From: Deltaproteobacteria bacterium RIFCSPHIGHO2_12_FULL_43_9 | Lineage (GTDB): Bacteria; Bdellovibrionota; O2-12-FULL-43-9 | Reading direction: 5' to 3' | Assembly (NCBI GenBank): GCA_001798265.1 | Contig: MGRR01000030.1 | Span: 1-32,030, forward strand | DNA: 32,030 bases | Part shown: one piece after another, positions 10,134-30,049 of the stretch | Layout: the number at the start of each line of letters is the position of its first letter | Position numbering within the stretch: the first letter of the stretch is position 1 | Made by a program: the position numbers and the translations under genes | Notes under the pieces: generated by a model | What the model saw: the letters and a program-made list of their open reading frames with translations, nothing else | What the model was told of the DNA's origin: nothing | Database searches by the model: none

Positions 10134-10180
10134 TAAATTATTATTTATGTAGAGTTACAGATTTCAGTGTATCTTTCTAG
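10134..10180 (+). pseudogene. Relic copy of the last ~16 codons of gene 6215..8011 (family C 3-prime end)
   Basis: 10134..10161 (taaattattatttatgtagagttacaga) matches 7962..7989 (taaattattatttatatagagttacaga) at 27 of 28 positions. In the same frame it reads NYYLCRVTDFSVSF-stop, against NYYLYRVTDPRVTLY-stop. Similarity decays towards each stop codon. Confidence 0.6.
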
Positions 10181-18175: not shown

Positions 18176-18229
18176 GTTCGGGTTCCTCTTCCCGGCACTC
18201 TTGTGCATTTAACAAAGGGTCGATGCTAT

Positions 18230-18877
18230 TTAATTTAATAAAGATTGTCCATTTTCAATAATATAATTAGCGTATTTTATTGTGTTTTTTATAAAGGGGA
18301 CCTCTTCCTTTTCCCTTTCCGATATAACCCTTTGAATTTTATCTGTATTGAGCCCCTTCTCCTTATAGAAGAGTTCAAGACGCTTTTGTCTTAAATCATC
18401 ATCAATTTTCACATAAATTTTTATTGCTGCTAAATCAAATAGATCTTTGAGTGCCAGCGCTACCACCCCCTCTGCTATTACAACACCAGATTTGATTTCA
18501 AGAGGAGTATTACCCCTCTCAGCTATCCTTTGTCGCGAATGTACGTCATATATCGGTGGATATATTGTGTCTCCTTTGAGCATGCTTCTCAAAGCATCAA
18601 CGATGGAATTACAATTGTAGCGGTCAATAACTCTGGAATCGATCTTTCTTTTTTCAACACTTACAAGCCAGTTATCAAGGCTGATTACCAGATTATTAAT
18701 ACCGTTAACTGAAAATAGATATGATAGCCCACCGGCTATTGAGCTTTTGCCGCTGCGGGAACACCCACCAATAAGTAACAGTGAAGTTTCAGTATCATCA
18801 ATTAATTCGGCTCTTGAAATATGCTTATAAAGTGCTTGAACACCGGAAAAAGTAATCGGTTTATTGTAATACGACAT
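18230..18877 (-). CDS. P-loop kinase of the uridine kinase / phosphoribulokinase family, substrate unknown
   Basis: Walker A motif GGCSRSGKSS, followed by ISLDNW, which resembles the Udk block ISQDSFY. 215 aa. 17-nt overlap with the upstream gene. Confidence 0.55.
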   Translation of the reverse strand: MSYYNKPITFSGVQALYKHISRAELIDDTETSLLLIGGCSRSGKSSIAGGLSYLFSVNGINNLVISLDNWLVSVEKRKIDSRVIDRYNCNSIVDALRSMLKGDTIYPPIYDVHSRQRIAERGNTPLEIKSGVVIAEGVVALALKDLFDLAAIKIYVKIDDDLRQKRLELFYKEKGLNTDKIQRVISEREKEEVPFIKNTIKYANYIIENGQSLLN

Positions 18878-20051
18878 CTTTTACAGCTTTAAGTAGGTTT
18901 AAATCCTTATTCAGAATGATAGTTTTGCAGCCGGCCAGTTCTCCAGCCTCTTGATCTCTTTCATCGTCACCAATTAAATATGTTTTTGATAAATCAAGGC
19001 AAAAATCTTTCTGGGCGTAGAAAAACATCCCTGGTTTTGGTTTTCTGCAGAAGCATCCATCGTCCCAGTTATGTGTGCAGCAATAAATAGCGCCAATTCT
19101 TACGCCAATGTTCAAAAGTTCTTTTGTCATATAGTCGTGAATACTGTCCAAATCTGCATGGGTCATCTTCCCCCTGGCTACGCCTGCCTGGTTAGTAACT
19201 ATAATAATGTTAAAATTGTTTTCTTTTAATAAAAGCAATGCCTCTTTTGCCTCCGGGAGCCAGACAAAATCTTTAACAGATGTGATGTACTCCGCTTTTG
19301 GTGCCTTTTTGTTTAATACACCGTCCCTGTCCAGGAAGATGTTTCTGGTGTTTTTCAAGAAACGCTCTGTTTCTTTAAGTCGTTCGTGTGAACCAACACT
19401 ATAATATCTATGATGTGTCAGATATGAAGTAAGTTTTTTTTCTCCCACGAGTCGTGTATAAACCACCTTTTCGAAATTAATGTTTTCAGCCGGTATCAGT
19501 GAAATAACCTCCTTGTTTAGTATTGCAAAACCGATATCTACACCACTAAGGTTTTCAGAGGTTCTATTTTTATCATATTTTATAACATAATTATTTTGAT
19601 CAAGGATTACATTGCTCTTTGTGTAGTGATCATCATTACTGTAAACTGTAATTTGTGCCAGTGGAGACTGGTTTTGGAATTGTTGCCACATCTTATCAAA
19701 TTGCATGGGCCAGTAGTTGTCGCAGTACATTAATAGAAAACAAGGATCTAACTTCTCTGCTGCAAGTTTCAGTCTCTTTCCGGTTTCGTCTTCAGTCTCT
19801 GAGGTTACATAGTCTATTTTTATTCCAAATGAATCTCCATTTCCAAAATACTCTTTGATTTGCTCTGGTAGGTAACCCAACAATAGTAAAACCTTCTTAA
19901 AACCCTGCTCTTTAAGATGTTCAATCAAGTATTGGAGAAAAGGTTTGCCATGAAAGTGGATCATTGGCTTGGGGATATCATCGGTAATAGGTTTAAGCCT
20001 TTCCCCTCTACCACCAGCCAAAATTACCGCTTGTGTTGGTCTTGCACCCAT
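18861..20051 (-). CDS. hddC-gmhB: Bifunctional D-glycero-alpha-D-manno-heptose-1-phosphate guanylyltransferase (HddC-like) / heptose-1,7-bisphosphate 7-phosphatase (GmhB-like) fusion
   Basis: N-terminal nucleotidyltransferase motif AVILAGGRGERLKPITDDIPKPM. C-terminal HAD phosphatase with FLDRDGVLN, VTNQAG, the GmhB Zn-loop and signature CCTHNWDDGCFCRKPKPGM, and GDDERD. Confidence 0.8.
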   Translation of the reverse strand: MGARPTQAVILAGGRGERLKPITDDIPKPMIHFHGKPFLQYLIEHLKEQGFKKVLLLLGYLPEQIKEYFGNGDSFGIKIDYVTSETEDETGKRLKLAAEKLDPCFLLMYCDNYWPMQFDKMWQQFQNQSPLAQITVYSNDDHYTKSNVILDQNNYVIKYDKNRTSENLSGVDIGFAILNKEVISLIPAENINFEKVVYTRLVGEKKLTSYLTHHRYYSVGSHERLKETERFLKNTRNIFLDRDGVLNKKAPKAEYITSVKDFVWLPEAKEALLLLKENNFNIIIVTNQAGVARGKMTHADLDSIHDYMTKELLNIGVRIGAIYCCTHNWDDGCFCRKPKPGMFFYAQKDFCLDLSKTYLIGDDERDQEAGELAGCKTIILNKDLNLLKAVKDVVLQ

Positions 20052-20130
20052 AAGTGATTAAATATAGGACAACCTAAAACTTTACAATATAGGCTTTGCA
20101 TATTATCAAATCACAAAGGCTGGAAGCGCA
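20052..20130. promoter_or_regulatory. 79-bp bidirectional control region between the two long divergent operons
   Basis: The only non-coding DNA between 18861..20051 (-) and 20131..20682 (+). Contains an 8-nt direct repeat aatatagg (20061..20068 and 20086..20093) and a 6-bp inverted pair gtgatt (20054..20059) / aatcac (20108..20113). No confident sigma-70 boxes. Confidence 0.35.
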
Positions 20131-20682
20131 ATGACATCATTTTATCAAGAGTATTTTCAGGAGTTGGACTCAAAAGTGAACAGTGCTAATATCCACGAAT
20201 TGGATAGATGCTGCAACCTTGTGAGTGGCATAGGAAAGAATAATAAGAAAATAATAATCGTTGGTAATGGTGGTAGCGCCACAATTGCCAGTCATGTCTC
20301 TGTCGATTTGACGAAATTGGCTAATATTAGAGCAATTAATTTCAATGAAGCCGATTTAATTACCTGTTTTGCAAACGATTATGGGTATGAGAATTGGGTT
20401 GCCCGTGGATTGGAGGCTTATGCCGACAAGGATGATCTTGTAGTCCTAATTAGTAGTAGTGGAAGGTCTCCAAATATTATCAATGGTGCTTTTAGAGCAA
20501 AGGAATTAGAGCTTAATACAATTACACTTTCAGGTTTTGATATTGATAATCCTTTAAAGAAATTGGGTGATATCAATTTATGGGTTGATAGTAAAATTTA
20601 TAATATCGTTGAATTAACCCATACCGTCTGGTTACTGACTATCATAGATAAGGTGATTCACGATAAAAAAGGTTCGAAATGA
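20131..20682 (+). CDS. gmhA: Sedoheptulose-7-phosphate isomerase (SIS domain phosphoheptose isomerase)
   Basis: IIIVGNGGSATIASHVSVDL matches the GmhA signature GNGGSA..A.H...(D/E)L. VLISSSGRSPN is the SIS motif. 183 aa, typical length. Confidence 0.8.
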   Translation: MTSFYQEYFQELDSKVNSANIHELDRCCNLVSGIGKNNKKIIIVGNGGSATIASHVSVDLTKLANIRAINFNEADLITCFANDYGYENWVARGLEAYADKDDLVVLISSSGRSPNIINGAFRAKELELNTITLSGFDIDNPLKKLGDINLWVDSKIYNIVELTHTVWLLTIIDKVIHDKKGSK

Positions 20683-21668
20683 AAAAGGTATTGATTACAG
20701 GTATAAACGGCTTCGCCGGTTCCCATCTTGCTGATCTATGTTTGGCTAAAGATGATGTACGTCTCTATGGTGTGAAGCGCTCCCACCTTTCTAATACAAA
20801 AAATGTCTTGCACATCGAGGATAAAATAGAATGGTTTACAACCGATCTTTTGGATGCCAAAGCGGTTTTGAAAACGATACGAGCAATTAAACCAGATATT
20901 ATTTTTCATCTCGCTGCCCAGAGTTTTGTGAGTCAATCATGGAATCACCCGACCCTCTTTATGGCAGGAAACTACAACATGACTGTAAATATTCTGGAAG
21001 CATGCCTGGAGTGTGGGATCAATCCCAGGATTCATCTACCGGGATCCGTTTCTGATTATGGTGATGTAACAGAGGAGGAACTTCCTTTAAATCCTGATTC
21101 AAGGCTAAAACCGGTTAATCCCTATTGTGTTTCAAAGATTGCTCAAGATTTTATTGGATATGTCTATTTTAGATCGTATGGGTCAAATGTAATTAGAACC
21201 AGGGCTTTTAATCATGAGGGTCCAAGAAGGGATAAGGTGTTTGGTATTCCATCCTATGCATATCAGATTGCCAAAATTGAGAACGGCTTACAGGAACCTG
21301 TAATAAAAGTCGGTCATATTGATGATCTGCGGGCTTTTACGCATGTTAAGGATATGGTTAATGCCTATTGGCTTGCAGTTGAGCATTGTAGTGTTGGAGA
21401 GCTCTATCTCATTGGTTCTGAGGATGAGAAATATGTTCATACATTCAGGGAAGCCCTTGAAATGCTAATTGGTTTTTCGAACGTTGAGGGAATTACCTAC
21501 AAAACTCATCCAGATTTTGTCAGACCGACTAATGTACCAAAGCTAACATGCGATGCATCAAAATTTACGAAAGCAACTAATTGGTCACCAAAATTAGATT
21601 TTGAAACCCTTCTTTCAGACACACTGAATTATTGGAGGGCGGAGTTTAAGAGGGGGGCAGTCAGGTAA
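20679..21668 (+). CDS. GDP-sugar 4,6-dehydratase (Gmd / DmhA-like extended SDR)
   Basis: VLITGINGFAGSHL Rossmann motif, NPYCVSK (YxxxK), and RAFNHEGPRR resembling the Gmd block NHESPRR. ATGA overlap with gmhA. Confidence 0.7.
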   Translation: MKKVLITGINGFAGSHLADLCLAKDDVRLYGVKRSHLSNTKNVLHIEDKIEWFTTDLLDAKAVLKTIRAIKPDIIFHLAAQSFVSQSWNHPTLFMAGNYNMTVNILEACLECGINPRIHLPGSVSDYGDVTEEELPLNPDSRLKPVNPYCVSKIAQDFIGYVYFRSYGSNVIRTRAFNHEGPRRDKVFGIPSYAYQIAKIENGLQEPVIKVGHIDDLRAFTHVKDMVNAYWLAVEHCSVGELYLIGSEDEKYVHTFREALEMLIGFSNVEGITYKTHPDFVRPTNVPKLTCDASKFTKATNWSPKLDFETLLSDTLNYWRAEFKRGAVR

Positions 21669-21671
21669 CCA

Positions 21672-22916
21672 ATGAACGGCCCCGGAAAAATCTATAATAC
21701 TATAAATAAGTGCAGAATATGTGGGGCGGATTCCATCGTTGATCTCATAAATTATGGAGAACAGCCTCTTGCAAATTCGCTCAAGAAACATAGAGATGAT
21801 GTAGAACAAAAAATTCCACTTACACTCTCATTTTGTAAGCAATCAAATCATGTCCAGCTTAAAGAGACGGTAAACAAGGAGCTTCTTTTCTCTGACTATA
21901 TCTGGGTAACAGGGACCGCGGCTTCTACGAAAAGATTCGCGAAGGAGTTTGCGCAGAGGGTTATTCAGATTACAAATCTCCAATCCCACGAGCTTGTCAT
22001 TGAAGTGGCCTCGAACGACGGGACATTTCTGGTGCCGTTTAAGGAGCTTGGTTTTTCAAATGTATTAGGTGTTGATCCAGCTGAAAACCTGAAAACTGCT
22101 GCCCTGCAGAACGGTATTGAAACAATCACGGCTTTTTGGAACAAAAATGTCTCTGAAGAGATTATAAAAAAACGTGGCAGAGCAAAAGTAGTAATGGCAC
22201 GAAATGTTTTGCCGCATGTAAGCCAGATTTTTGACGTAGTGGAGGGTATCAGGTGTGCCCTGCAGGATGATGGGGTTGCTATAATCGAATTTCACAATGC
22301 CGGTACTATACTTAATGAGTTGCATTACGATTCAGTTTACCACGAACATCTTTATTATTTTTCAATCAATTCAATTTGTTACCTGTTTGAGAAATATTCT
22401 TTATATCCGTTCCACGCTGATCCAAGTCCCATAAGTGGGGGAGGATACGTTTTATATCTGTCGGCGACAAGGAAGAATAAATCAAAGAGCCTGTTGCAAT
22501 TTATGGAGCAAGAAGAGTCAAACAAAGTAAATTCCCATGAGAGCTGGAATAGGTTTGCCGAAAGATGCGTGGAGCACAAGAGATTATCACGTGAAATAAT
22601 CGATAAATATTATGGGAGAAGGGTTATTGGATTCGGGGCTTCGGCAAGGAGCTCAACATATTTAAATTATTGTGAATTTAATAGTGGGAATATTGAGGCT
22701 GTGATAGATAATAATCCCATGAAGCAGGGGCAATTTACCCCCGGCTCATCAATTCCGATTATTTCTATGGAGGGAGGTTTGCGGAGAAAGCCCGATATTA
22801 TTTTTATTCTCGCATGGAATTTTCGACATGAAATTATAAATCTTTGTCGTTCAAAGGGTTACCGTGGTGACTTCATTGTATCATTTCCATTCGAACCGAA
22901 AGTAATTCAGTCATGA
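21672..22916 (+). CDS. NDP-hexose C-methyltransferase (TylC3/NovU-type; Zn-ribbon + class I SAM MTase + C-methyltransferase C-terminal domain)
   Basis: N-terminal CRICG...L(I)NYGEQPLANS zinc-ribbon/substrate motif. VIEVASNDG in the SAM motif I position. YHEHLYYFS block. About 414 aa, typical of this family. Confidence 0.7.
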   Translation: MNGPGKIYNTINKCRICGADSIVDLINYGEQPLANSLKKHRDDVEQKIPLTLSFCKQSNHVQLKETVNKELLFSDYIWVTGTAASTKRFAKEFAQRVIQITNLQSHELVIEVASNDGTFLVPFKELGFSNVLGVDPAENLKTAALQNGIETITAFWNKNVSEEIIKKRGRAKVVMARNVLPHVSQIFDVVEGIRCALQDDGVAIIEFHNAGTILNELHYDSVYHEHLYYFSINSICYLFEKYSLYPFHADPSPISGGGYVLYLSATRKNKSKSLLQFMEQEESNKVNSHESWNRFAERCVEHKRLSREIIDKYYGRRVIGFGASARSSTYLNYCEFNSGNIEAVIDNNPMKQGQFTPGSSIPIISMEGGLRRKPDIIFILAWNFRHEIINLCRSKGYRGDFIVSFPFEPKVIQS

Positions 22917-23458
22917 AGTTTATCAAGCAAGCCTTGCCCGATGTCTACTTAATTGAACCTGAGCCGGCAAAGGATCACCGCGGGTTACTGAGGCGGCACT
23001 TTTGCAAAAGGGAATTTGATCCATTCTATCCAATTCCAGATATTAATCAGAGCAATATTTCAGAGAACCTGAAAAAAAAGACATTAAGAGGGTTTCATTA
23101 TCAAAAGTCCCCACACGGGGAGTCTAGATTGATTTCATGTGTAAAGGGTGGTGTTTACGATATTGTGGTGGATCTAAGGCCTACTTCTAGAACATTTTGT
23201 AAATGGATCTCAACAGAGCTTACAGAAGATAATCGCCTGAGTCTTTTCGTACCTGATGGCTGTGCGAATGCCTTTCTTACGCTTGAAAATAATAGCTGGA
23301 TGCTCTATCTGCACACAGGATTTTATGTCCCCGGTTTTGAGGGGGGAGTAAGATACAACGATCCATATTTTAATTTTAAATGGCCGACTAAACCAGAGGT
23401 GATATCTGAAAGGGACGGCAACATTCCACTGTTTAATCCGGGCGATTTTTCCTTATGA
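22913..23458 (+). CDS. RmlC-like cupin, NDP-4-keto-6-deoxy-sugar 3,5- (or 3- / 5-) epimerase
   Basis: DHRG...F and LRGFHYQ motifs as in dTDP-4-dehydrorhamnose 3,5-epimerase. 181 aa. ATGA overlaps at both ends. Confidence 0.75.
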   Translation: MKFIKQALPDVYLIEPEPAKDHRGLLRRHFCKREFDPFYPIPDINQSNISENLKKKTLRGFHYQKSPHGESRLISCVKGGVYDIVVDLRPTSRTFCKWISTELTEDNRLSLFVPDGCANAFLTLENNSWMLYLHTGFYVPGFEGGVRYNDPYFNFKWPTKPEVISERDGNIPLFNPGDFSL

Positions 23459-24363
23459 ATATATTAATTTCAGGTGCAAATGGTTTTATAGGCCGACATG
23501 TTGTCGACTCAATCGCAGGGAATCATAATCTGGCTCTGATTCTTCGCAACCTGGGTAGCCAGGGATTCAAGCCTGATAATGTAACCAATATTATCGGTTC
23601 ATTGGAGAATATAGCGGAAGTTCAGAAAGAAATAATTAATTTTTCGCCAGATGCCTGCATTCATCTTGCGTGGGATGGTATTCCCGATTTTTCCGCAAAA
23701 AGGTCACTTTCCAATTTAAATCTCTCGGTCAGTTTGCTGGATATGCTTATTGAAAACACGAATTGTAAGAAATATATTATTACAGGTTCCTGCTATGAAT
23801 ATGGCAATGCTTCTGGTGAATGCAGGGAATCAGACCCCGCAAAATTCGATTCCTTTATCGGATGGGCCAAACATTCCATTAATCAATATGCTACCTTACG
23901 GTGTCTGGAAAAGGGATTAAAGTTATATTGGCTGAGATGTTTTTATGTTTTTGGGTCTGGGCAGAGGAATGCTTCAATTATACCGTCAATTATCAGTGCC
24001 TTTCTAAAGAATGAAACACCGATAATAAAGAACCCGTTCAACGCGAACGATTTTGTTCATGTTAAAGATATATCACGGGCAATCCGGCTTATTTTGGAGC
24101 GCGATCCCGAGGGTGGTATTTACAATCTCGGTTCCGGACAAGCCACCCAAATAGTGAAAATATGTGAGATTATAGAGAGAAAGATTTGCAACTCGACGAC
24201 ATTTTCAGATAGCCTGTTGAATCTAAATAAAGATATGCATAGCAGGGGCTTTTGGGCCGATATTACGAAAGCAAAAAAATATTTTGGGTGGGAGCCGTAT
24301 TTAACGATCGAAGAAGGGATCGAAGAACTTCTTGGGTCAATTAAACGTGAAATGAGATGGTAA
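23455..24363 (+). CDS. NAD(P)-dependent extended SDR, probable NDP-4-keto-sugar reductase
   Basis: ILISGANGFIGRHV Rossmann motif. 302 aa. Located immediately after the dehydratase/C-MT/epimerase genes. The expected YxxxK position reads IGWAK (see findings). Confidence 0.6.
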   Translation: MNILISGANGFIGRHVVDSIAGNHNLALILRNLGSQGFKPDNVTNIIGSLENIAEVQKEIINFSPDACIHLAWDGIPDFSAKRSLSNLNLSVSLLDMLIENTNCKKYIITGSCYEYGNASGECRESDPAKFDSFIGWAKHSINQYATLRCLEKGLKLYWLRCFYVFGSGQRNASIIPSIISAFLKNETPIIKNPFNANDFVHVKDISRAIRLILERDPEGGIYNLGSGQATQIVKICEIIERKICNSTTFSDSLLNLNKDMHSRGFWADITKAKKYFGWEPYLTIEEGIEELLGSIKREMRW

Positions 24364-25364
24364 CAAATAAACAAAAGCTAATTTCCATTGTGTGTCCAAT
24401 CTATAATGAAGAGCATACTATTCCTATTTTCTATAAGAGATTAACTAAGGTAATTGCTTCATTGTCTCATGTGTACAAATTCGAATTAATATTCACCAAT
24501 AATAGATCGACGGACAAAAGCCTCGAACGAATTCTTGAGCTGCGGAATCGGGACACATCAATGCAGGTCATAACGATGTCAAGAAACTTTGGATATCAGG
24601 CATCTGTACAGGCAGGCATAACCCATGCCACTGGTGAAGCAATTGTGATTATAGATGTCGATTGTGAAGATCCACCAGAGATGATCCCTGGATTCCTTGA
24701 GAAGTGGGCCGAGGGTTACGACATAGTATGTGGAATAAGAAAAGACAGACCAGAGGCCTGGATTATGAAGAAATTAAGGGATTGCTTCTATTATCTTCTG
24801 AAGATGACCGCGGATATGGATATTGTTCTTAGAATGGCGGAGTTTGGTTTAATCTCATCAACGGTACGCGATTGCATTGTAAATAATCATAATACATTCC
24901 CATTCTTAAGAGCCGAAATTGGGTACGTAGGATTTTCAAGGTATGAAATTCCATATACAAGGGAGCCAAGAAGTTATGGCAAGTCTGGGTACAATCTATT
25001 GGGGATGGTTATATTTGCAACTGCCGGGCTTTTAACTTCCTCTACGTTTCTATTTAGGTTAGCTGCGTATTTGCTTCCATTTATTGTCTTTACTAATCTT
25101 GTCCTTGTTTTATTGGGACTAATAACGCACTCATTGTCATATTTCCTTGTATTATTTTCCCTAGATCTTCTCTATATTATTTTTTATATGACCGTGCATG
25201 GGGTTTACATTGCCAGAATTTATAAAAATGACATAAGGCGTCCGATTTATATTATTGATCCCAAATTAACATTTCTTAATCAGGAGAATGTCAGACAAAG
25301 TTTTGTCGCCAAGCCTGTACCTAGGCATTTTCAAGAGGCGGGTGAGGTTCATGGAATTCAATGA
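24357..25364 (+). CDS. GtrB/ArnC-like family 2 glycosyltransferase (polyprenyl-phosphate sugar synthase) with two C-terminal TM helices
   Basis: SIVCPIYNEE...SRNFGYQASVQAG...AIVIIDVDCEDPPEMIP...WAEGYDIVCGIR.DR matches the GtrB/ArnC/CsbB pattern. Two hydrophobic helices follow, then the RRPIYII tail. Confidence 0.8.
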   Translation: MVTNKQKLISIVCPIYNEEHTIPIFYKRLTKVIASLSHVYKFELIFTNNRSTDKSLERILELRNRDTSMQVITMSRNFGYQASVQAGITHATGEAIVIIDVDCEDPPEMIPGFLEKWAEGYDIVCGIRKDRPEAWIMKKLRDCFYYLLKMTADMDIVLRMAEFGLISSTVRDCIVNNHNTFPFLRAEIGYVGFSRYEIPYTREPRSYGKSGYNLLGMVIFATAGLLTSSTFLFRLAAYLLPFIVFTNLVLVLLGLITHSLSYFLVLFSLDLLYIIFYMTVHGVYIARIYKNDIRRPIYIIDPKLTFLNQENVRQSFVAKPVPRHFQEAGEVHGIQ

Positions 25365-26244
25365 AGTAAATTGCCCCGTCTGTGAAAAAAATGATTATAA
25401 GGTTGTATATCCCGGTACCCTTGGAAAGAATGCCCCGGTATTCGGGTATAAATGGACACCAGAAATACGGAAAATATATCGCCTGGTCCAGTGTAAAAAC
25501 TGCTCGCATGCTTATGCATCACCACGATTGAGTGATATTTATAAATATTATGAAGATGTTAAAGATGAAACCTATTTGAATAATGCAGGTTTAAGAAAAA
25601 AAACGGCAAGAAAGGTTTTGACCACGATCAAAAAGTTCAAGCCTGACGGCAAATTACTTGATGTAGGCTGTTCAACTGGAGATTTTTTGGAGGTTGCGAA
25701 GGAAGATTATGAATCAGAAGGCATGGAGCTTTCAGAATGGGCGTTAAAAATTGCCCGCGAGAAACAACTTTTGGTGTATAAGGAGACTCTGCGGGATAGG
25801 GCTGCGGCATGTAGGGCCTCGTATGATGTGGTGACGATGTGGGGTGTTATTGAGCATCTGGAATATCCCAAATTAGAGATCCAGCGCATTAATAGCCTGT
25901 TAAAGGAGGGTGGTATTGTCGCTCTCTGGACCGGAGATTTTAACTCAATCTTTTCTAAAATTTTCAGACAGAAGTGGTGGTATATTCTAGGACAGCATAT
26001 CCAGTTTTTTAGTTGGAAATCGATGGATTATTTAATGGAAGAGGCTGGATTCCAGAGGGTTCATAAAGGTATTTATCCATACGTAATATCATTTGAGTAC
26101 CTCGGTGTTTCTCTTTCTAGATATTCAATTGTCGGCCCTCTTGTCAGGAATTTTTTTAAATTATATGGTCTTGCGGCGCAAGAATTTACATTAAAAAAAT
26201 CTGACGAGATGTTTGCAATTTATAAAAAGGTTAGGAACAACTAG
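25351..26244 (+). CDS. Class I SAM-dependent methyltransferase with an N-terminal Cys4 zinc-ribbon
   Basis: CPVCEK...CKNCSHAY ribbon and LLDVGCSTGDFLE (SAM motif I). Start moved from 25288 to the ATG at 25351, which has GGTGAGG 5 nt upstream and reduces the overlap with the GT2 gene to 14 nt. Confidence 0.7.
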   Translation: MEFNEVNCPVCEKNDYKVVYPGTLGKNAPVFGYKWTPEIRKIYRLVQCKNCSHAYASPRLSDIYKYYEDVKDETYLNNAGLRKKTARKVLTTIKKFKPDGKLLDVGCSTGDFLEVAKEDYESEGMELSEWALKIAREKQLLVYKETLRDRAAACRASYDVVTMWGVIEHLEYPKLEIQRINSLLKEGGIVALWTGDFNSIFSKIFRQKWWYILGQHIQFFSWKSMDYLMEEAGFQRVHKGIYPYVISFEYLGVSLSRYSIVGPLVRNFFKLYGLAAQEFTLKKSDEMFAIYKKVRNN

Positions 26245-26257
26245 CAGATTGGTAATC

Positions 26258-27178
26258 ATGAAATCTTGTCCAATATGTAATTCTTCAGAGACTAATGCAA
26301 TATTAAAATCAGAAAAAGAATTCCTTTCTAATACTATATTTGATATTCGCGAATGCTTTGAATGTGGTGTCTCATATACAGATCCACGACCTGATAATCT
26401 CGACCCATATTATCCCACAAATTATCGGGGTTATAATTTTGTAATCAACAAGTTGTTAAAAATGTTTTACCAGGGAAGAATTAATGGATGGACAAGGAGG
26501 TTTAAAAAGCCCGGGAAGGTACTGGAAATCGGTTGCGGACCCGGGTATATGCTTGATGTTTTTCGTAAAAAAGGATGGCGGGTGCTGGGTCTTGAAAGGT
26601 CGGCTGATACAGCCAGATATGCACAAGAGGTTCTTGGGCTCGATGTTTTTGTCGGGGACATCGATTTGATCCCTGAGAAAAGGGAATATGATTTAATTAT
26701 CATTTTTAACGTTCTCGAGCATGTTACTGACCCAACTACTATTTTACGGGGATGCGCAAAACGTTTAAAACCCGAAGGAACTTTAATAATAAATATCCCT
26801 AATATTAACAGCTTACAGGCAAGATATGCAGGCTCCCACTGGTCGCATCTTGATCCACCGAGGCACCTTTTCTATTTTACGCCGAAATCATCGGAGAATA
26901 TACTGTCAAAATGTGGACTTACAATAAATGATATCAAATACAATTCATTTGAATTTGATTCATTTGGTTGGTTACAAAGTTTAATAAATAAGATAACGGG
27001 ACATTATAATGTATTCGCATTGTATCTAATGGGAATTGAACCATTTAGTCGAAAGGTAGTGTTAGCAATGGCTTTGTCTTTTTTTCTTATAATTCCATCA
27101 TGTGTTTTATCAATTGTGGGGAGGCTCACTAAAAGTGGTGCGCTCATGCAGGTGAGTGCCCGGCCGAACTTATTATGA
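26258..27178 (+). CDS. Class I SAM-dependent methyltransferase with an N-terminal Cys4 zinc-ribbon and a C-terminal TM anchor
   Basis: CPICNS...CFECGVSY ribbon and VLEIGCGPGYMLDVF (SAM motif I). C-terminal hydrophobic stretch VVLAMALSFFLIIPSCVLSIVG. Start chosen at the ATG at 26258 (MKSCPICN), not 26213. Confidence 0.7.
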   Translation: MKSCPICNSSETNAILKSEKEFLSNTIFDIRECFECGVSYTDPRPDNLDPYYPTNYRGYNFVINKLLKMFYQGRINGWTRRFKKPGKVLEIGCGPGYMLDVFRKKGWRVLGLERSADTARYAQEVLGLDVFVGDIDLIPEKREYDLIIIFNVLEHVTDPTTILRGCAKRLKPEGTLIINIPNINSLQARYAGSHWSHLDPPRHLFYFTPKSSENILSKCGLTINDIKYNSFEFDSFGWLQSLINKITGHYNVFALYLMGIEPFSRKVVLAMALSFFLIIPSCVLSIVGRLTKSGALMQVSARPNLL

Positions 27179-28941
27179 TCCAGCAGAAGCACCGAAATAG
27201 TTATGGATATATTCTTATACTTTTGTATGTAGCATTACATTACATCTCTATAAGCGGAATATATCTTCAATTTACAAGGGATGTACTCCCATCGGGTGAT
27301 CCATTTACTTATACCGTCGGTTTTTTTAATCTCCTTGATCTTGCACGGAAAGATTTCTGGGAAGCACTTCATCGTGCTTTTACCTCAAACTGGTACTGGC
27401 TTATCAACATCCAGACTGTACTCTTTTCACCAATTTTAATTAAGGAGCCATTCTCGATAGCTATTGTAAATTACATAATGTGGGCCTTGGCCAGCATATC
27501 AATGTTCAGGCTTTGTCGCTTAATAGAGCTTGATTTTGTATTCTCGTTTTTGGCTACATTTTTAATCTGGTTTTTCCCGATTAATTTTGGCTTTTTGGAC
27601 TATACATCGATGCCGGTTCTTGGCCTCGATTCTATATTCTTTGCTGCCCTGCAGATGGCGCTCTTCAATACTTTTATTTATGCACTTGATCCGCAGAAAT
27701 TAAAGAATGCAATTATTGCAGGGCTTTCTTTTGGTATTGCAGTGTGGGGTAGAGGGAATTCTCTCATTGTTGTCGGTATGACAATTTTTTTACCCATACT
27801 CGTTGTTTTTATACAGCTTTTAAAGACCAGGAGAAAGCAGCTGATTATTCCATTCTTTATGTTTGCAATTATAAGCATTGCAATGACATCTATTTATTTC
27901 ATTCTTCAAGGCGGGGGGATTGTTGGTTATTATGGTCATCACGCAAATTTTGTGACGAGACACGCTTGGAATGTGCATGACGCGATGCCATATTTTAATA
28001 ATTTACCAGGATTTTTCATCTGGAGAGATGAGAATTCAGTCCCAACAATCTTAATTACTATATTACTCCATATTATGACTGTTGTGAGTCTGGTAATGTC
28101 ATTTAAGAACAGGAAAAAAAGCAAATTATATAGCACACTCTATTTTATATGCGTCACAGGTGTATTTATATATGTCACAACATACCTTATTAATATCATT
28201 TTCTTCACCGATCCCCTTATGACCATCTATAACTGCCTGTTAATTTATGCACCAATGCGTATAGGAATTACGCTTTCACTCTTCACCTTGTTGGCAACCC
28301 TAGTTTTAAATAGAAAAATATTACTGAAGCCGTGGTTGTTAATTTTAGGTTTCATCATTTTTATTTCATATGGAATTATTTTTACAAAGCATAACACACC
28401 TAAATCAATTTTCCCGCCGTTTGCATCGAAGGTGGAGGCTGTTGCCAAAAATATAGATGAGATTTTAGAGGGGAAATCGCTCAGTATGTTTTGGTATCAA
28501 TCATACAGCCCTAGGATATTAAACTATTACAGAGTAAAAAATAGTCAGCCTGAAATCAATTTCTATATGAACAGATATTATAATGATATCTGGCAGCAAT
28601 ACGACTACTCAGAGTCAAAGCGTTTAAAGGTTCGTGAGGAGCTGAAAAATCATTTTGAAGAGGCCTCAATAATTCTTATCCCTGAGTATGTTGATTATTT
28701 CAATAGCCATTTCGCGACTGCATTTGCTGTAATGAAGGATGAGTTTCCAAAATACTTGAATTCCTCTGCCAGTAAACAATTTGTTGTGCGTGGAGTCCTT
28801 CAGGACCGAGATGGTATGAGGCTTTTATTGCTGCAGCGAAAAACCGAGGCAAAGGGTCGTGGAGAGCCGCTTAAATTGCCATATGGACTTTCAACTGATG
28901 CCATTAAGGTAGATTATGGTGAAAAGGTTATTAGGTTTTAA
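27175..28941 (+). CDS. Large polytopic membrane protein, family B (paralogue of 2381..4141)
   Basis: 588-codon ORF with an ATGA overlap with the preceding methyltransferase gene. Shared blocks are listed under 2381..4141. Confidence 0.6.
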   Translation: MIQQKHRNSYGYILILLYVALHYISISGIYLQFTRDVLPSGDPFTYTVGFFNLLDLARKDFWEALHRAFTSNWYWLINIQTVLFSPILIKEPFSIAIVNYIMWALASISMFRLCRLIELDFVFSFLATFLIWFFPINFGFLDYTSMPVLGLDSIFFAALQMALFNTFIYALDPQKLKNAIIAGLSFGIAVWGRGNSLIVVGMTIFLPILVVFIQLLKTRRKQLIIPFFMFAIISIAMTSIYFILQGGGIVGYYGHHANFVTRHAWNVHDAMPYFNNLPGFFIWRDENSVPTILITILLHIMTVVSLVMSFKNRKKSKLYSTLYFICVTGVFIYVTTYLINIIFFTDPLMTIYNCLLIYAPMRIGITLSLFTLLATLVLNRKILLKPWLLILGFIIFISYGIIFTKHNTPKSIFPPFASKVEAVAKNIDEILEGKSLSMFWYQSYSPRILNYYRVKNSQPEINFYMNRYYNDIWQQYDYSESKRLKVREELKNHFEEASIILIPEYVDYFNSHFATAFAVMKDEFPKYLNSSASKQFVVRGVLQDRDGMRLLLLQRKTEAKGRGEPLKLPYGLSTDAIKVDYGEKVIRF

Positions 28942-29032: not shown

Positions 29033-30049
29033 ATGCATCCTAGGACCCTCCTTACACTGGATCTTGTCCGCTCCTTTCCAAGGGCGGACCACAAGCTTTC
29101 AAAACTTTTAGCCTATACATTATATATGCTTGATCCTATTTTGGGCGACAGATTGTCAGTAGCCTCCAGGTGGAGGGGGGCGCATCCACTACACGCCTTT
29201 ATACTGTTAACCACTCGATGTAATATGAGTTGTGAGGATTGTTTCTTTGTTGACGTTATCAACGATAAGAGTGTTGGCCATCTTGACTATAATTTAGATG
29301 AAATTAAAAAAGTTTATAAATCTGGCCTCTTCAATACCGTGAGCCGTGTAATTTTGTATGGTGGTGAGCCTACCCTGTGTAAGGATCTCTACCCAATTAT
29401 CAGATTTTTCCGTCAGCGTGGGATTGTAGTAAGCATGACGTCCAATGTGATACGCATTGATCGTAAGATCCTTGAAGAGCTTAAGAGTGCCGATCTTAAC
29501 ATGCTTAATCTCAGCATATACAAAGAGACCAGCCGTGGTGTTAGGAGGAATCTGGAATATATAGAAAAAGTACTCGAAGATGCCCGCAGTGGCGCCTTTG
29601 ATCCGGAACGGATTGAAATCAGCTATCACGGCGTTGATGTTGAGAGTTACCGCTGGGCGTATGATTTCGCCAAGCAGGTCGGGGCACGCCATCTGCTTTT
29701 TAACAGGACATTTTATACCGATTATAATCCCAAGGATGGTGGCTTTGCAGAGAACGAAGAATTTGCCGATGAGTATGTCTCCCTTTGCCGGCGTATAGAA
29801 AAAGAGAAACAGCTTAATTTCTACCACGCTACATACCGGGGCACACCTAATACATGTTCATTTACAACAAATGCATTTGCTGTTGGTCCCGTAGAGACCC
29901 TGAGCCCATGTTGCATGGTAACCCCAGACAAAAAATTTGGTTCAATATCGGAACCGGGGCCACTAATAGATTTTAAAAATGGTTTTTTATCAAAACAGGT
30001 CCCGAACCTTTGTAAAGAGTGTCATTTGCTTGGCACAAAACATTTTTAA
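29033..30049 (+). CDS. Radical SAM enzyme with a Cys-rich C-terminal auxiliary-cluster (SPASM/twitch-like) region
   Basis: LTTRCNMSCEDCFF (CxxxCxxC), ILYGGEPTL (GGE motif), and C-terminal Cys pattern CSF...SPCCMV...LCKECH. Start is uncertain: an alternative ATG lies at 29126. Follows a 91-nt gap, the largest inside the plus operon. Confidence 0.7.
   Translation: MHPRTLLTLDLVRSFPRADHKLSKLLAYTLYMLDPILGDRLSVASRWRGAHPLHAFILLTTRCNMSCEDCFFVDVINDKSVGHLDYNLDEIKKVYKSGLFNTVSRVILYGGEPTLCKDLYPIIRFFRQRGIVVSMTSNVIRIDRKILEELKSADLNMLNLSIYKETSRGVRRNLEYIEKVLEDARSGAFDPERIEISYHGVDVESYRWAYDFAKQVGARHLLFNRTFYTDYNPKDGGFAENEEFADEYVSLCRRIEKEKQLNFYHATYRGTPNTCSFTTNAFAVGPVETLSPCCMVTPDKKFGSISEPGPLIDFKNGFLSKQVPNLCKECHLLGTKHF

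What the first reader, a model, noticed from the sequence alone, without database searches (positions are those of the whole stretch)
18861..24363. Predicted pathway to a C-methylated 6-deoxy-heptose: GDP-heptose genes wired to a Gmd / C-methyltransferase / epimerase / reductase cassette
All four activities for GDP-D-glycero-alpha-D-manno-heptose are present:
- GmhA at 20131..20682.
- HddA-like GHMP kinase at 31536 to the window end.
- GmhB and HddC fused in 18861..20051.

Directly coupled to gmhA through ATGA or short overlaps are four tailoring genes:
- Gmd/DmhA-like 4,6-dehydratase (20679..21668).
- TylC3/NovU-type NDP-hexose C-methyltransferase (21672..22916).
- RmlC-like epimerase (22913..23458).
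- SDR reductase (23455..24363).

Two parts of this logic are established separately. Dehydratase + epimerase + reductase on GDP-heptose gives 6-deoxyheptoses (Yersinia pseudotuberculosis DmhA/DmhB, Campylobacter capsule heptoses). Gmd + C-3 methyltransferase + epimerase + reductase is the proposed route to the branched sugar virenose in Coxiella.

I am not aware of a described combination of the two, which would give a C-methyl-branched 6-deoxyheptose. The next gene, a GtrB-like GT2, would load the product onto a polyprenyl phosphate.

Alternative: the cassette acts on GDP-mannose made elsewhere, and the heptose genes feed a separate branch.
Basis: partly seen in the sequence, partly recalled or inferred. 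Interest (0 to 1): 0.7.

Follow-up and report, generated by a model that had tools for sequence, protein, structure and literature searches.

The report
Conserved C-methyl-heptose sugar pathway module
This groundwater bacterium carries a gene module, also found compactly in at least 60 other bacterial and archaeal genomes, that is predicted to make a methyl-branched seven-carbon sugar nobody appears to have described, although here the enzyme assumed to remove the sugar's 6-hydroxyl lacks the residue needed for that step.

Summary
All the genes named in the finding are present, with the stated domains and ATGA or short overlaps. The NT–GmhB fusion is on the minus strand, divergent from gmhA.

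The link between heptose activation and the C-methyltransferase (C-MT) cassette is a conserved operon, not a one-off. Of 80 species-level genomes that carry this C-MT clade, 62 have at least 2 heptose-activation genes and 53 have at least 3. True GMD appears in only 5.

The C-MT keeps the catalytic residues of TcaB9/TylC3. The slot before it holds one of two SDR types, never both:
- a DdahA/Rmd-like putative 4,6-dehydratase with motif S-G-E (12 loci);
- a Cj1427-like C4-dehydrogenase with motif S-Q-S (51 loci).

The window's enzyme belongs to the dehydratase clade but reads S-V-S. Its catalytic Glu is Ser, a change confirmed in an independent assembly and seen in only 2 of 119 relatives that cover the motif. 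It therefore fails the 4,6-dehydratase signature, and "6-deoxy" is not supported for this organism.

Downstream, a GtrB/ArnC-like GT2 and a newly recognised GT-C enzyme fit delivery through a polyprenyl phosphate carrier.

No paper describing a C-methyl heptose was found. Verdict: interpretation partly supported; new variant of a known kind; interest about 0.6.

The parts
18861..20051 (-). Fused sugar-1-phosphate nucleotidyltransferase (HddC-like, res 7-230) and HAD-IIIA heptose-1,7-bisphosphate phosphatase (GmhB-like, res 235-383)
   Evidence: Pfam and NCBIfam. Best solved relatives are Y. pseudotuberculosis HddC 6jq8/5xhw (76 bits) and GmhB 3l8h/4pnh/2gmw (84-100 bits). The two domains are contiguous in 46 of the 47 related loci that have both. 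All equivalog cutoffs are missed.
18230..18877 (-). PRK/uridine-kinase-like P-loop kinase, overlapping the NT-GmhB gene by 17 nt; role unknown
   Evidence: Pfam PRK. NCBIfam udk 58 bits against a cutoff of 220. It recurs beside NT-GmhB or GmhA in L003, L005-L007, L010, L048 and L085.
20131..20682 (+). SIS-domain GmhA-like sedoheptulose-7-P isomerase, divergent subgroup
   Evidence: All 13 top PDB hits are phosphoheptose isomerases. TIGR00441 scores 82 bits against a cutoff of 209. H55 (E. coli H61) is kept, E65 becomes Asp, and the H180 equivalent is Leu.
20679..21668 (+). SDR1: GDP-sugar SDR of the Rmd/DdahA-like 'type A' clade with motif S123-V-S125-D...Y149xxxK153. Predicted to generate the 4-keto sugar; dehydration is doubtful.
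   Evidence: PDB 2pk3 192 bits and 7us5 170 bits, true GMDs about 100 bits. Motif analysis. The same motif is present in the independent assembly L091. Nested inside the type A clade.
21672..22916 (+). TylC3/TcaB9-type NDP-sugar C-methyltransferase
   Evidence: Pfam Methyltransf_13 (52 bits against 31) and Methyltransf_14 (117 bits against 23.5). PDB TylC3 180 bits, TcaB9 160, KijD1 155. Y76, H182, Y223, E225 and H226 align with the TcaB9 catalytic residues.
22913..23458 (+). RmlC-fold 3,5- (or mono-) epimerase
   Evidence: Pfam 173 bits. TIGR01221 scores 134 bits against a cutoff of 156. H62, Y132 and D168 are kept; K72 is Arg. It is closer to true RmlC (130 bits) than to the C. jejuni GDP-heptose epimerases (43-55 bits).
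23455..24363 (+). SDR2: atypical extended SDR, presumed C4 reductase
   Evidence: Pfam Epimerase. The family has an invariant [ST]-C-x-E-Y-G and K139, but Phe (Ile in the window) replaces the catalytic Tyr. Present in 56 of 80 related loci.
24357..25364 (+). GT2 polyprenyl-phosphate glycosyltransferase (GtrB/ArnC/PgfS-like)
   Evidence: NCBIfam PgfS 152 bits and ArnC 108 bits, both below cutoff. Three C-terminal hydrophobic segments. Conserved in type A loci.
25288..26244 (+). Class I SAM methyltransferase MTa (gene call 25351-26244, 297 aa)
   Evidence: Pfam Methyltransf_23. Gene call. 54-68% identical orthologues in L002, L005-L007, L010 and L018.
26213..27178 (+). Class I SAM methyltransferase MTb (gene call 26258-27178, 306 aa)
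   Evidence: Pfam Methyltransf_23/_11. Orthologues in the same type A loci.
27175..28941 (+). U588: GT-C-fold membrane glycosyltransferase from a family with no Pfam model
   Evidence: No Pfam hit. About 10 TM segments. AF2 pLDDT 90.8. The top 24 Foldseek hits are all GT-C enzymes. Invariant G41-D42. Shares contigs with type A SDR1 and C-MT.
29033..30049 (+). Radical SAM protein; role unknown
   Evidence: Pfam Radical_SAM. Orthologues in L002 (75%) and L010 (58%).
30069..31520 (+). B12-binding radical SAM protein, candidate additional methylase
   Evidence: Pfam B12-binding and Radical_SAM. NCBIfam hits to several B12-rSAM methyltransferase families, all below cutoff. 57% identical orthologue inside the L007 module.
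31536..32030 (+). N-terminal 165 aa of the HddA-like GHMP kinase (full length 330 aa)
   Evidence: Pfam GHMP_kinases_N. The full-length protein from L091 scores 182 bits on NCBIfam HddA; the next family scores 65. The scaffold gap explains the apparent truncation.

Best explanation
The locus is one copy of a conserved, widely distributed and apparently uncharacterised operon for a nucleotide-activated (most likely GDP-) C-methyl-branched heptose.

Inferred pathway:
1. The SIS isomerase converts sedoheptulose-7-P to heptose-7-P.
2. The HddA-like GHMP kinase makes the 1,7-bisphosphate.
3. The fused protein removes the 7-phosphate (GmhB domain) and nucleotidylates the sugar (HddC-like domain).
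4. SDR1 oxidises C4.
5. The TylC3-type C-methyltransferase uses the 4-keto group to methylate an adjacent carbon. C3 is the likeliest position by analogy with all solved relatives.
6. The RmlC-like enzyme epimerises.
7. SDR2 is presumed to reduce C4.
8. The GtrB/ArnC-like GT2 moves the sugar onto a polyprenyl phosphate.
9. The GT-C enzyme U588 transfers it to an acceptor outside the cytoplasm.
10. The two class I methyltransferases and the radical SAM enzymes may add further modifications.

In this organism SDR1 descends from the dehydratase-type clade but has Ser in place of the catalytic Glu. This is the same state as in Cj1427-type C4-dehydrogenases. I therefore think it most likely makes the 4-keto sugar without 6-deoxygenation, giving a C-methyl-heptose rather than a C-methyl-6-deoxyheptose.

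Shown here: gene content, domain families, catalytic-residue states, conserved synteny and the GT-C fold. Inferred: every substrate and product, the nucleotide, the methylation position, and the role of SDR2.
For: Module conservation:
- SIS-SDR1-C-MT-RmlC order with the GHMP kinase and NT-GmhB fusion in every close relative examined.
- Among 80 species-level genomes found with the C-MT alignment: GHMP 62, NT 61, GmhB 49, GmhA 41, RmlC 68, SDR2 56. At least 2 heptose genes in 62 and at least 3 in 53. Nearly all lie within 6 kb of the C-MT.
- Compact operons in Prochlorococcus, Pelagibacter, Methylophilaceae, Legionellales, CPR bacteria and DPANN archaea.

Heptose identity:
- HddA is by far the best model for the kinase (182 bits against 65).
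- Best solved relatives are HddC and GmhB and phosphoheptose isomerases.

GDP and 4-keto logic:
- SDR1's nearest solved relatives are all GDP-sugar enzymes.
- The alternative occupant of its slot is closest to Cj1427, the GDP-heptose C4-dehydrogenase (110 bits).
- The two SDR types are mutually exclusive: 12 against 51, none with both.

C-MT: catalytic residues are conserved.

Loss of dehydration:
- S-V-S against the family's S-G-E in 117 of 119.
- The signature table in PMC8987622.
- The variant is present in a second assembly and is nested within the Glu-bearing clade.

Delivery: GT2 and the GT-C fold of U588.
Against: - Nothing here is biochemical.
- All four heptose-activation proteins score well below NCBIfam equivalog cutoffs.
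- The window's GmhA subgroup lacks the equivalent of catalytic His180.
- The NT domain scores slightly higher on MurU than on HddC in NCBIfam, so GDP is not proven.
- SDR1 shows no overall similarity to Cj1427 (26% over 159 aa). A dehydratase-clade enzyme that stops after C4 oxidation would need a way to reoxidise its NADH.
- Asp126, next to Ser125, or a water molecule might still support dehydration.
- The closest relative P0002 also lacks the catalytic Ser/Thr (G-A-V-S-D), which could mean relaxed constraint rather than a new function.
- SDR2 lacks the canonical Tyr.
- The RmlC-like protein resembles dTDP-sugar RmlC more than the GDP-heptose epimerases.
- All solved C-MT relatives act on dTDP-sugars.
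Confidence: 0.55

Rival explanations
1. SDR1 is still a working GDP-heptose 4,6-dehydratase, with Asp126, a water molecule or another residue replacing Glu125, and the product is a C-methyl-6-deoxyheptose.
For: - SDR1 is 61-77% identical to 118 relatives that carry the full S-G-E...YxxxK signature and sit in the same operon slot.
- Its best solved relatives include the C. jejuni heptose 4,6-dehydratase.
- An acidic residue (D126) is adjacent to the lost Glu.
- Different dehydratase classes do use different acid/base pairs (PMC8987622).
Against: - Every NS-SDR 4,6-dehydratase class in the review's table has Glu or Lys at the position that is Ser here.
- The Ser state matches Cj1427 and the type B enzymes.
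- The change comes with about 20 other departures from family-invariant positions, shared with P0002. That suggests a functional shift.
Confidence: 0.2
2. The tailoring cassette acts on GDP-mannose or another hexose nucleotide made elsewhere (virenose-like logic), and the heptose genes feed a separate branch.
For: - The virenose proposal uses GMD, a 3-C-methyltransferase and an epimerase/reductase on a GDP-hexose (PMC3539893).
- The window holds further SDRs (14298-15260, GDP-fucose-synthase-like) and a second GT2 that could form another branch.
- All characterised C-MT relatives act on hexoses.
Against: - No mannose-1-P guanylyltransferase, phosphomannomutase or true GMD is on the 43-kb contig.
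- Across 80 genomes this C-MT clade travels with heptose-activation genes (62 of 80) and with GMD in only 5.
- gmhA is translationally coupled to SDR1.
- In minimal operons such as L027, L030 and L051, heptose genes are the only sugar-activation genes present.
Confidence: 0.08
3. SDR1 in this lineage is catalytically impaired or has become a reductase. The 4-keto intermediate is then made by another enzyme (SDR2, SDR3 or SDR4), or the pathway is decaying.
For: - Glu125 is lost, and in P0002 the catalytic Ser as well.
- The variant is rare, 2 of 119, and no further copies were found in the metagenome scan.
- A. thermoaerophilus Rmd, a reductase, is the top solved hit.
- SDR4 (15257-16069) carries S-I-E...Y130xxxK.
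Against: - The Rossmann motif, Y149xxxK153 and the NHEGPRRD substrate loop are intact.
- The protein is full length, translationally coupled and identical in two assemblies.
- 77% identity to P0002 with shared substitutions argues for selection.
- Rmd enzymes keep an acidic residue at the position lost here.
- SDR3 and SDR4 are not conserved with the module.
Confidence: 0.09
4. The SIS / GHMP / HAD / NT set activates a sugar other than D-glycero-D-manno-heptose, so the branched product is not a heptose.
For: - All four proteins fall far below equivalog cutoffs.
- The window's SIS subgroup lacks the H180 equivalent and has Asp for E65.
- MurU outscores HddC for the NT domain.
- A conserved PRK-like kinase of unknown role accompanies the set.
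Against: - The four-activity combination (SIS isomerase, GHMP kinase, HAD-IIIA phosphatase, NT) is the defining logic of the GDP-heptose pathway.
- Each protein's best characterised relative is the heptose enzyme.
- In other loci a canonical His-bearing GmhA fills the same slot.
- Both the type B SDR and SDR1 are nearest to GDP-heptose enzymes.
Confidence: 0.08

Closest known systems
Campylobacter jejuni capsule GDP-heptose modification system (GmhA/HddA/GmhB/HddC, then 4,6-dehydratase DdahA/WcbK or C4-dehydrogenase Cj1427, then C3/C5 epimerases and C4 reductases; PMC10680097)
   Same: [quoted passage not shown] Both then epimerise with a cupin (RmlC-fold) enzyme and reduce. SDR1 is 34% identical to DdahA (7us5). 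The type B alternative is 31% identical to Cj1427 (6vo6).
   Different: - C. jejuni has no C-methyltransferase.
- The epimerase here is much closer to true RmlC than to the Campylobacter epimerases (130 bits against 43-55).
- SDR2 is not a GDP-fucose-synthase-like reductase.
- NT and GmhB are fused.
- Delivery goes through polyprenyl-P and a GT-C enzyme rather than capsule assembly.
Proposed GDP-virenose pathway of Coxiella burnetii (GMD CBU_0689, TylCIII-like CBU_0691, GMER-like CBU_0688; PMC3539893, in silico only)
   Same: A GDP-sugar 4-keto intermediate is C-methylated by a TylC3-type enzyme, then epimerised and reduced.
   Different: The proposed substrate is a GDP-hexose made by a true GMD, and the product is a 6-deoxyhexose. 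The pathway has not been shown biochemically. The Coxiella region also contains heptose-activation genes whose role is called unclear (PMC5843353, PMC13252051). I could not compare sequences.
dTDP-sugar C-3-methyltransferases TylC3, TcaB9 and KijD1 (PDB 4rv9, 3ndi, 5t64)
   Same: Same three-part architecture and the same catalytic residues (Tyr76, His181, Tyr222, Glu224, His225 in TcaB9 numbering). The mechanism depends on a 4-keto sugar.
   Different: Roughly 30-35% identity (my reading of the alignments). These enzymes act on dTDP-2,6-dideoxy or amino hexoses in actinomycete antibiotic pathways. The clade here has Ser in place of the fourth zinc-site Cys and sits with heptose genes.
Yersinia pseudotuberculosis DmhA/DmhB and A. 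thermoaerophilus GMD/Rmd
   Same: GDP-sugar SDRs of the same broad group. Rmd (2pk3) is the single best solved hit for SDR1 (192 bits). Y. pseudotuberculosis HddC is the best hit for the NT domain.
   Different: Those pathways have no methylation step. Their dehydratases and reductases keep an acidic residue at the position that is Ser here.
GtrB/ArnC plus GT-C (GtrC, ArnT, PMT-type) periplasmic glycosylation systems
   Same: A GT2 with C-terminal TM helices sits next to a multi-TM GT-C-fold transferase. This is the hallmark of polyprenyl-P-monosaccharide delivery.
   Different: U588 has no Pfam family and only 10-13% identity to any solved GT-C. The donor sugar is new. The contig carries at least ten further large multi-TM proteins of unknown family.

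Membership tests
GMD-type NDP-sugar 4,6-dehydratase (includes heptose dehydratase DdahA/DmhA) | Active-site signature [ST]-x-E ... Y-x3-K, with the Glu acting as acid/base for C5/C6 elimination | tested here: not met
   SDR1 reads S123-V-S125 ... Y149-x3-K153. 117 of 119 relatives read S-G-E. Signature from PMC8987622, Table 1.
GMD-type NDP-sugar 4,6-dehydratase (includes heptose dehydratase DdahA/DmhA) | Sequence membership (TIGR01472 gmd equivalog, or clade with characterised enzymes) | tested here: inconclusive
   TIGR01472 scores 126 bits against a cutoff of 415, so it is not a GMD orthologue. SDR1 lies in a distinct clade about 34% identical to both Rmd and DdahA.
Cj1427-type GDP-heptose C4-dehydrogenase | Sequence relatedness to Cj1427 | tested here: not met
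   SDR1 against Cj1427: 26% over 159 aa, 32 bits. Only the T/S-x-S motif state is shared. The type B SDR of related loci does match (110 bits).
Sugar C-methyltransferase (TylC3/TcaB9/KijD1) | Methyltransf_13 zinc domain plus class I MT plus Methyltransf_14 C-terminal domain, above Pfam gathering scores | tested here: met
   51.9 bits against 31.3, and 117.5 bits against 23.5.
Sugar C-methyltransferase (TylC3/TcaB9/KijD1) | Catalytic residues Tyr76, His181, Tyr222, Glu224, His225 (TcaB9 numbering; identity of these residues from memory, consistent with the PDB mutant series 4e2w-4e33) | tested here: met
   Y76, H182, Y223, E225 and H226 are invariant in the 35-sequence alignment and align to TylC3 and TcaB9.
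Sugar C-methyltransferase (TylC3/TcaB9/KijD1) | Four-Cys zinc site | tested here: inconclusive
   C14, C17 and C55 are present. The fourth position is a near-invariant Ser58 in this clade.
[quoted passage not shown] | GmhA: SIS fold with catalytic Glu65 and His180 (E. coli numbering, from memory) | tested here: inconclusive
   All top PDB hits are GmhA. TIGR00441 scores 82 bits against 209. H61 is kept, E65 is Asp, and the H180 equivalent is Leu in the window's subgroup but His in the subgroup filling the same slot elsewhere.
[quoted passage not shown] | HddA: GHMP kinase of the heptose-7-P kinase family | tested here: inconclusive
   NF049969 HddA is the best hit at 182 bits, with the next family at 65, but the equivalog cutoff is 600.
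[quoted passage not shown] | GmhB: HAD-IIIA phosphatase | tested here: met
   The subfamily-domain models are passed: TIGR01656 scores 128 bits against 84, and TIGR01662 scores 98 against 45. The equivalog NF006506 (148 against 178) is narrowly missed. PDB GmhB hits score 84-100 bits.
[quoted passage not shown] | HddC: heptose-1-P guanylyltransferase (GTP specificity) | tested here: inconclusive
   HddC is the best PDB hit (76 bits). The NCBIfam HddC model scores 84 bits against 300 and is outscored by MurU at 105. Nucleotide specificity cannot be tested with these tools.
RmlC-type 3,5-epimerase | Cupin fold with His63, Lys73, Tyr133 and Asp170 (S. enterica RmlC numbering, from memory) | tested here: inconclusive
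   Pfam scores 173 bits against 27. TIGR01221 scores 134 against 156. H62, Y132 and D168 are kept; K72 is Arg, seen only in the window and L010 out of 74 sequences.
GT-C glycosyltransferase (U588) | GT-C membrane fold with a conserved acidic residue in the first extracytoplasmic loop | tested here: met
   AF2 pLDDT 90.8. The top 24 Foldseek PDB hits are all GT-C enzymes, with TM about 0.5. G41-D42 is invariant.
Polyprenyl-phosphate GT2 (GtrB/ArnC/DPMS type) | GT2 catalytic domain followed by C-terminal TM helices | tested here: met
   Pfam GT2 scores 90 bits. Hydrophobic segments start at residues 214, 233 and 258. PgfS and ArnC are the best NCBIfam models but fall below cutoff.

The most novel reading that the evidence does not exclude
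A previously undescribed class of eight-carbon branched sugar (GDP-C-methyl-heptose) is made by a compact operon spread across bacteria and archaea, including SAR11, Prochlorococcus, CPR and DPANN lineages. The operon comes in two versions set by which SDR makes the 4-keto intermediate: 6-deoxy or 6-hydroxy. This MAG would then capture a natural conversion of a 4,6-dehydratase into a C4-oxidase by loss of the catalytic Glu. The sugar would be further methylated (class I MTs, B12-radical-SAM enzymes) and installed through polyprenyl-P carriers by a new GT-C family.
Probability: 0.35. Interest if true: 0.8.

Novelty: new variant of a known kind. Interest (0 to 1): 0.6.

Why it matters
If confirmed, this adds a new monosaccharide class to prokaryotic glycobiology and assigns a function to a module present in many abundant but poorly understood lineages. 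These include marine SAR11 and Prochlorococcus, groundwater CPR and DPANN, Nitrospirae, Omnitrophota and Acidobacteria.

In mass spectrometry such a sugar has the same mass as an O-methyl-heptose or an octose, so it could already be mis-assigned in glycoproteomic and nucleotide-sugar surveys.

The paired dehydratase-type and dehydrogenase-type SDRs, plus the Glu-to-Ser variant here, form a natural experiment on what separates C4 oxidation from 4,6-dehydration in sugar SDRs.

The U588 family adds an unannotated GT-C clade with a predictable donor.

The same logic may bear on the unexplained requirement for heptose-activation genes in the Coxiella virenose region.

Tried and rejected
- **Metagenome scan for the variant.** I scanned the JGI metagenome collection with a degenerate DNA pattern for H-x-P-G-x-[VI]-S-[DE]-Y-G-[DE] to find more Glu-to-Ser variants. 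The 3 hits were all chance matches with no SDR1 similarity. Even P0002 was not recovered, so the collection is incomplete. This used the only metagenome scan.
- **Promoter and terminator scan** of the 79-bp divergent spacer region. Nothing above the shuffle expectation.
- **Primary papers.** The C. jejuni heptose 4,6-dehydratase paper (PMC9623766) and the Cj1427 structure paper (PMC7509852) are not held. I used the NS-dehydratase review instead.
- **Literature searches** for C-methyl or 3-C-methyl heptose, and for heptose genes together with a C-methyltransferase. No relevant paper. The anammox S-layer and SugarBase papers mention GDP-heptose but no C-methyl heptose.
- **Truncated kinase.** I considered that the GHMP kinase was a pseudogene (173 aa). 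Rejected: it is a scaffold-gap artefact.
- **RmlC and SDR1 co-variation.** I considered that RmlC K72R co-varies with the SDR1 change. Rejected: L010 has Arg with a normal S-G-E SDR1.
- **C-MT placement.** Placing the C-MT in GDP- versus dTDP-sugar clades was not possible, because no characterised GDP-sugar C-MT sequence was available. Genomic context was used instead.
- **SDR1 structure.** I did not model SDR1, because the tools return no coordinates to judge whether Asp126 can reach the substrate.

Full report
**Observation.** The window comes from a 43-kb scaffold of the Rifle groundwater MAG 'Deltaproteobacteria bacterium RIFCSPHIGHO2_12_FULL_43_9'. Every ORF named in the finding exists at the given coordinates and has the stated domain content.

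The plus-strand genes are tightly coupled:
- gmhA/SDR1: ATGA overlap.
- SDR1/C-MT: 3-nt gap.
- C-MT/RmlC: ATGA overlap.
- RmlC/SDR2: ATGA overlap.
- SDR2/GT2: 7-nt overlap.

Two corrections apply. First, the nucleotidyltransferase-GmhB fusion (18861-20051) is on the minus strand, divergent from gmhA across 79 bp. Second, the GHMP kinase that runs off the window looks split on the source scaffold, but only because of a 10-N scaffold gap. An independent assembly that is 99.8% identical (L091) encodes an intact 330-aa protein.

**Are the heptose genes really heptose genes?** Each is the best match to the corresponding heptose enzyme, but none reaches an NCBIfam equivalog cutoff.
- Kinase: HddA 182 bits against a cutoff of 600, with the next family at 65.
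- GmhB domain: passes the HAD-IIIA and histidinol-phosphatase-type domain models and narrowly misses the GmhB equivalog. It matches GmhB structures.
- NT domain: its best solved relative is Y. pseudotuberculosis HddC, although the NCBIfam MurU model slightly outscores HddC.
- SIS protein: hits only phosphoheptose isomerases in the PDB. Its subgroup has Asp for E. coli Glu65 and Leu at the His180 equivalent. The E. coli sequence is from my memory.

In other loci the same operon slot holds a more canonical, His-bearing GmhA at about 30% identity. I therefore read this as two SIS subfamilies doing the same job, but that is an inference.

**Is the heptose-to-C-methyltransferase wiring real?** This is the strongest result.
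- The closest C-MT relatives (77-51% identity) all sit in the order SIS-SDR-C-MT-RmlC, with a GHMP kinase and a fused NT-GmhB in the same operon.
- A scan of one genome per species with a C-MT alignment returned 80 loci. They come from Omnitrophota, Elusimicrobia, Acidobacteria, Planctomycetes, Nitrospirae, Proteobacteria, Cyanobacteria, Bacillota, Actinobacteria, Chloroflexota, many CPR groups, and Nano- and Woesearchaeota.
- tblastn with the window's proteins found GHMP kinase in 62, NT in 61, GmhB in 49, GmhA in 41, RmlC in 68 and SDR2 in 56. NT and GmhB are contiguous in 46 of the 47 loci that have both.
- 62 loci have at least two heptose-activation genes and 53 have at least three, nearly always within 6 kb of the C-MT. 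A true GMD is present in only 5.
- Gene orders are compact and repetitive. For example, SDR-C-MT-RmlC-SDR2-NT/GmhB-GHMP occurs in Prochlorococcus (L027), Pelagibacter (L042), a complete Methylophilaceae chromosome (L051) and Legionellales (L030).
- No mannose-activation gene lies anywhere on the 43-kb contig.

The combination is not unique to this window. It is a conserved module.

**The C-methyltransferase.** It has the Methyltransf_13 / class I / Methyltransf_14 architecture above Pfam thresholds. Its best solved relatives are TylC3, TcaB9 and KijD1. It keeps the residues corresponding to TcaB9 Tyr76, His181, Tyr222, Glu224 and His225. All solved relatives methylate C3 of 4-keto sugars. C3 is thus the default guess here, but it was not tested.

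**The 'dehydratase'.** SDR1 is not a GMD orthologue (TIGR01472: 126 bits against 415).
- Its best solved relatives are A. thermoaerophilus Rmd (192 bits) and the C. jejuni GDP-heptose 4,6-dehydratase (170 bits). True GMDs score about 100 bits.
- Pairwise identity is about 34-35% to both Rmd and the heptose dehydratase, and 28% to GMD.
- It belongs to a large, widespread 'type A' family at 61-77% identity, which forms its own clade.
- In that family the active-site motif is G-S-G-E-E-[YFH]-G in 117 of the 119 members that cover it.
- The window protein reads G-S-V-S-D-Y-G, and its closest relative reads G-A-V-S-D-Y-G.

According to the nucleotide-sugar dehydratase review, GMD-type enzymes are defined by [ST]-S-E...Yx3K, with the single Glu carrying the dehydration chemistry. 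Every 4,6-dehydratase class has Glu or Lys at that position, whereas GalE-type oxidoreductases have neither (PMC8987622). The window enzyme keeps Ser123 and Tyr149/Lys153 but fails this signature.

The substitution is real, because it is identical in the independent assembly. It is also derived, because the two variants nest inside the Glu-bearing clade.

**The alternative occupant of the slot.** In 51 of the 80 genomes the gene before the C-MT is a different SDR ('type B'). Type A occurs in 12, and the two never occur together.
- Type B's best solved relative is 6vo6 (110 bits, 31% identity). From the Raushel/Holden papers cited in PMC10680097, this is Cj1427, the GDP-heptose C4-dehydrogenase. 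Cj1427 makes the 4-keto-heptose without removing O-6 (PMC10680097).
- Its motif is T-N-S-G-Y-G, and type B reads S-Q-S-M-Y-G. Both have Ser where dehydratases have Glu, as the window's SDR1 does.

This gives three conclusions.
1. The slot's job is to make the 4-keto intermediate that the C-MT and the epimerase need. This argues that type A is a dehydratase rather than an Rmd-like reductase.
2. The module exists in a predicted 6-deoxy version (type A) and a predicted 6-hydroxy version (type B). Type B is the commoner.
3. The window's enzyme has the clade membership of the first and the active-site state of the second.

My best reading is that it oxidises C4 without dehydrating. I hold this at roughly even odds, for four reasons. 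Asp126 or water might substitute for the Glu. NADH recycling would need explaining. P0002 has also lost the catalytic Ser. And no further variants could be found.

**Other steps.**
- The RmlC-fold protein keeps His62, Tyr132 and Asp168 but has Arg for the family-invariant Lys72. It resembles true RmlC more than the Campylobacter heptose epimerases.
- SDR2 is present in 56 of 80 loci but is atypical. It has an invariant [ST]-C-x-E-Y-G and Lys139, with Phe (Ile here) in place of the catalytic Tyr. Its assignment as the C4 reductase rests only on pathway logic.

**Delivery.**
- The GT2 is GtrB/ArnC/PgfS-like with C-terminal hydrophobic segments.
- The following 588-aa protein has no Pfam family. 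A high-confidence model (pLDDT 90.8) matches only GT-C glycosyltransferases at the top of the PDB search, and it has an invariant Gly41-Asp42 in the first loop.
- Its 48 homologues are all 'hypothetical', and several share contigs with type A SDR1 and C-MT hits.
- GT2, the two class I methyltransferases and U588 (and in some loci the radical SAM, B12-radical-SAM and PRK-like genes) are shared specifically with type A loci L002, L007, L010 and L018.

**Comparison with known systems and novelty.** The closest characterised system is the C. jejuni capsule heptose pathway, which lacks C-methylation. The closest logic for C-methylation of a GDP-sugar is the in-silico virenose proposal for Coxiella (PMC3539893). 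Four full-text searches found no description of a C-methyl heptose or of heptose genes linked to a sugar C-methyltransferase. That library is incomplete, so this is absence of evidence only.

All enzyme families are known, while the combination and the predicted product are not. I rate it a new variant of a known kind. Interest is 0.6: a specialist would find a widespread, unrecognised nucleotide-sugar pathway worthwhile and directly testable, but everything about its chemistry is still inferred.

Noticed in passing
window 100-2301(-), 2381-4141(+), 4119-6212(+), 6215-8011(+), 10177-12144(-), 12158-14311(-), 27175-28941(+); also L090 13330-21452: Seven large ORFs (586-733 aa) have no Pfam hit. 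Each has 8-11 predicted TM segments plus a soluble C-terminal part. Paralogue pairs are 586~588 (44%), 598~717 (49%) and 697~733 (27%). Four more (608-852 aa) lie just beyond the window on the same contig. Only the 588-aa one was modelled, and it has a GT-C fold. The locus may encode a battery of polyprenyl-P-sugar-dependent transferases.
   Followed up: partly
window 8047-9654(-), 16709-18208(-), 30069-31520(+), 29033-30049(+): Three B12-binding radical SAM proteins and one further radical SAM protein lie in a glycan locus. Their best NCBIfam models are assorted B12-rSAM C/P-methyltransferases, HpnJ and AprD4-type diol dehydratase, all far below cutoff. B12-rSAM genes also sit in or beside the module in L005 and L007. 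They could methylate or deoxygenate unactivated carbons of the heptose side chain.
   Followed up: partly
window 18230-18877(-): A PRK/uridine-kinase-like P-loop kinase overlaps the NT-GmhB gene by 17 nt. It recurs directly beside NT-GmhB or GmhA in L003, L007, L010 and L085, also occurs in L005, L006 and L048, and is 38-48% identical. Its role in a heptose pathway is unknown.
   Followed up: partly
window 23455-24363(+): The SDR2 family (59 sequences) lacks the canonical catalytic Tyr of Yx3K: it has Phe, and Ile in the window. It has an invariant [ST]-C-x-E-Y-G. It is an atypical extended SDR with an unassigned mechanism.
   Followed up: partly
window 20131-20682(+) and GmhA-like genes of L002-L085: Two SIS/GmhA subfamilies fill the same operon slot. 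The window's subgroup (52-69% identical) has Leu or Val at the E. coli His180 equivalent and Asp for Glu65. The roughly 30%-identical subgroup keeps the His.
   Followed up: partly
window 14298-16716(-): The minus-strand operon also carries a GDP-fucose-synthase/GME-like SDR (14298-15260), a short SDR with S-I-E...Y130xxxK (15257-16069) and a soluble GT2 (16033-16716). They may form a second sugar branch fed from the same NDP-heptose. They are not conserved with the module in other loci.
   Followed up: partly
L090 about 11965-11975 (just beyond window end 32030): A run of 10 N in the deposited scaffold replaces 21 bases. It makes the HddA-like kinase appear as two ORFs (173 and 79 aa). The independent assembly L091 has the intact gene.
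   Followed up: yes
window 21672-22916(+): This heptose-associated C-MT clade has Cys14, Cys17 and Cys55 but a near-invariant Ser58 where TylC3 and TcaB9 have the fourth zinc-site Cys.
   Followed up: no
window 25351-27178(+): Both class I methyltransferases begin with CxxC...CxxC motifs (MTa: CPVC...CKNC; MTb: CPIC...CFEC). These resemble the zinc-ribbon N-terminus of the sugar C-methyltransferase.
   Followed up: no
literature (Coxiella burnetii cbu0674-cbu0691): The Coxiella 'virenose region' contains a phosphoheptose isomerase (CBU0674), SDRs (CBU0676/0677) and a reversed-domain HldE-like gene (CBU0678). CBU0678 is essential for phase I LPS, and its role is called unclear. These genes lie beside a TylCIII-like C-MT (CBU_0691). 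This may be a variant of the same heptose-plus-C-methylation logic.
   Followed up: no
window 22913-23458(+): The RmlC-like protein has Arg at the position of the family-invariant Lys72 (RmlC Lys73). Only the window and L010 show this among 74 sequences.
   Followed up: partly
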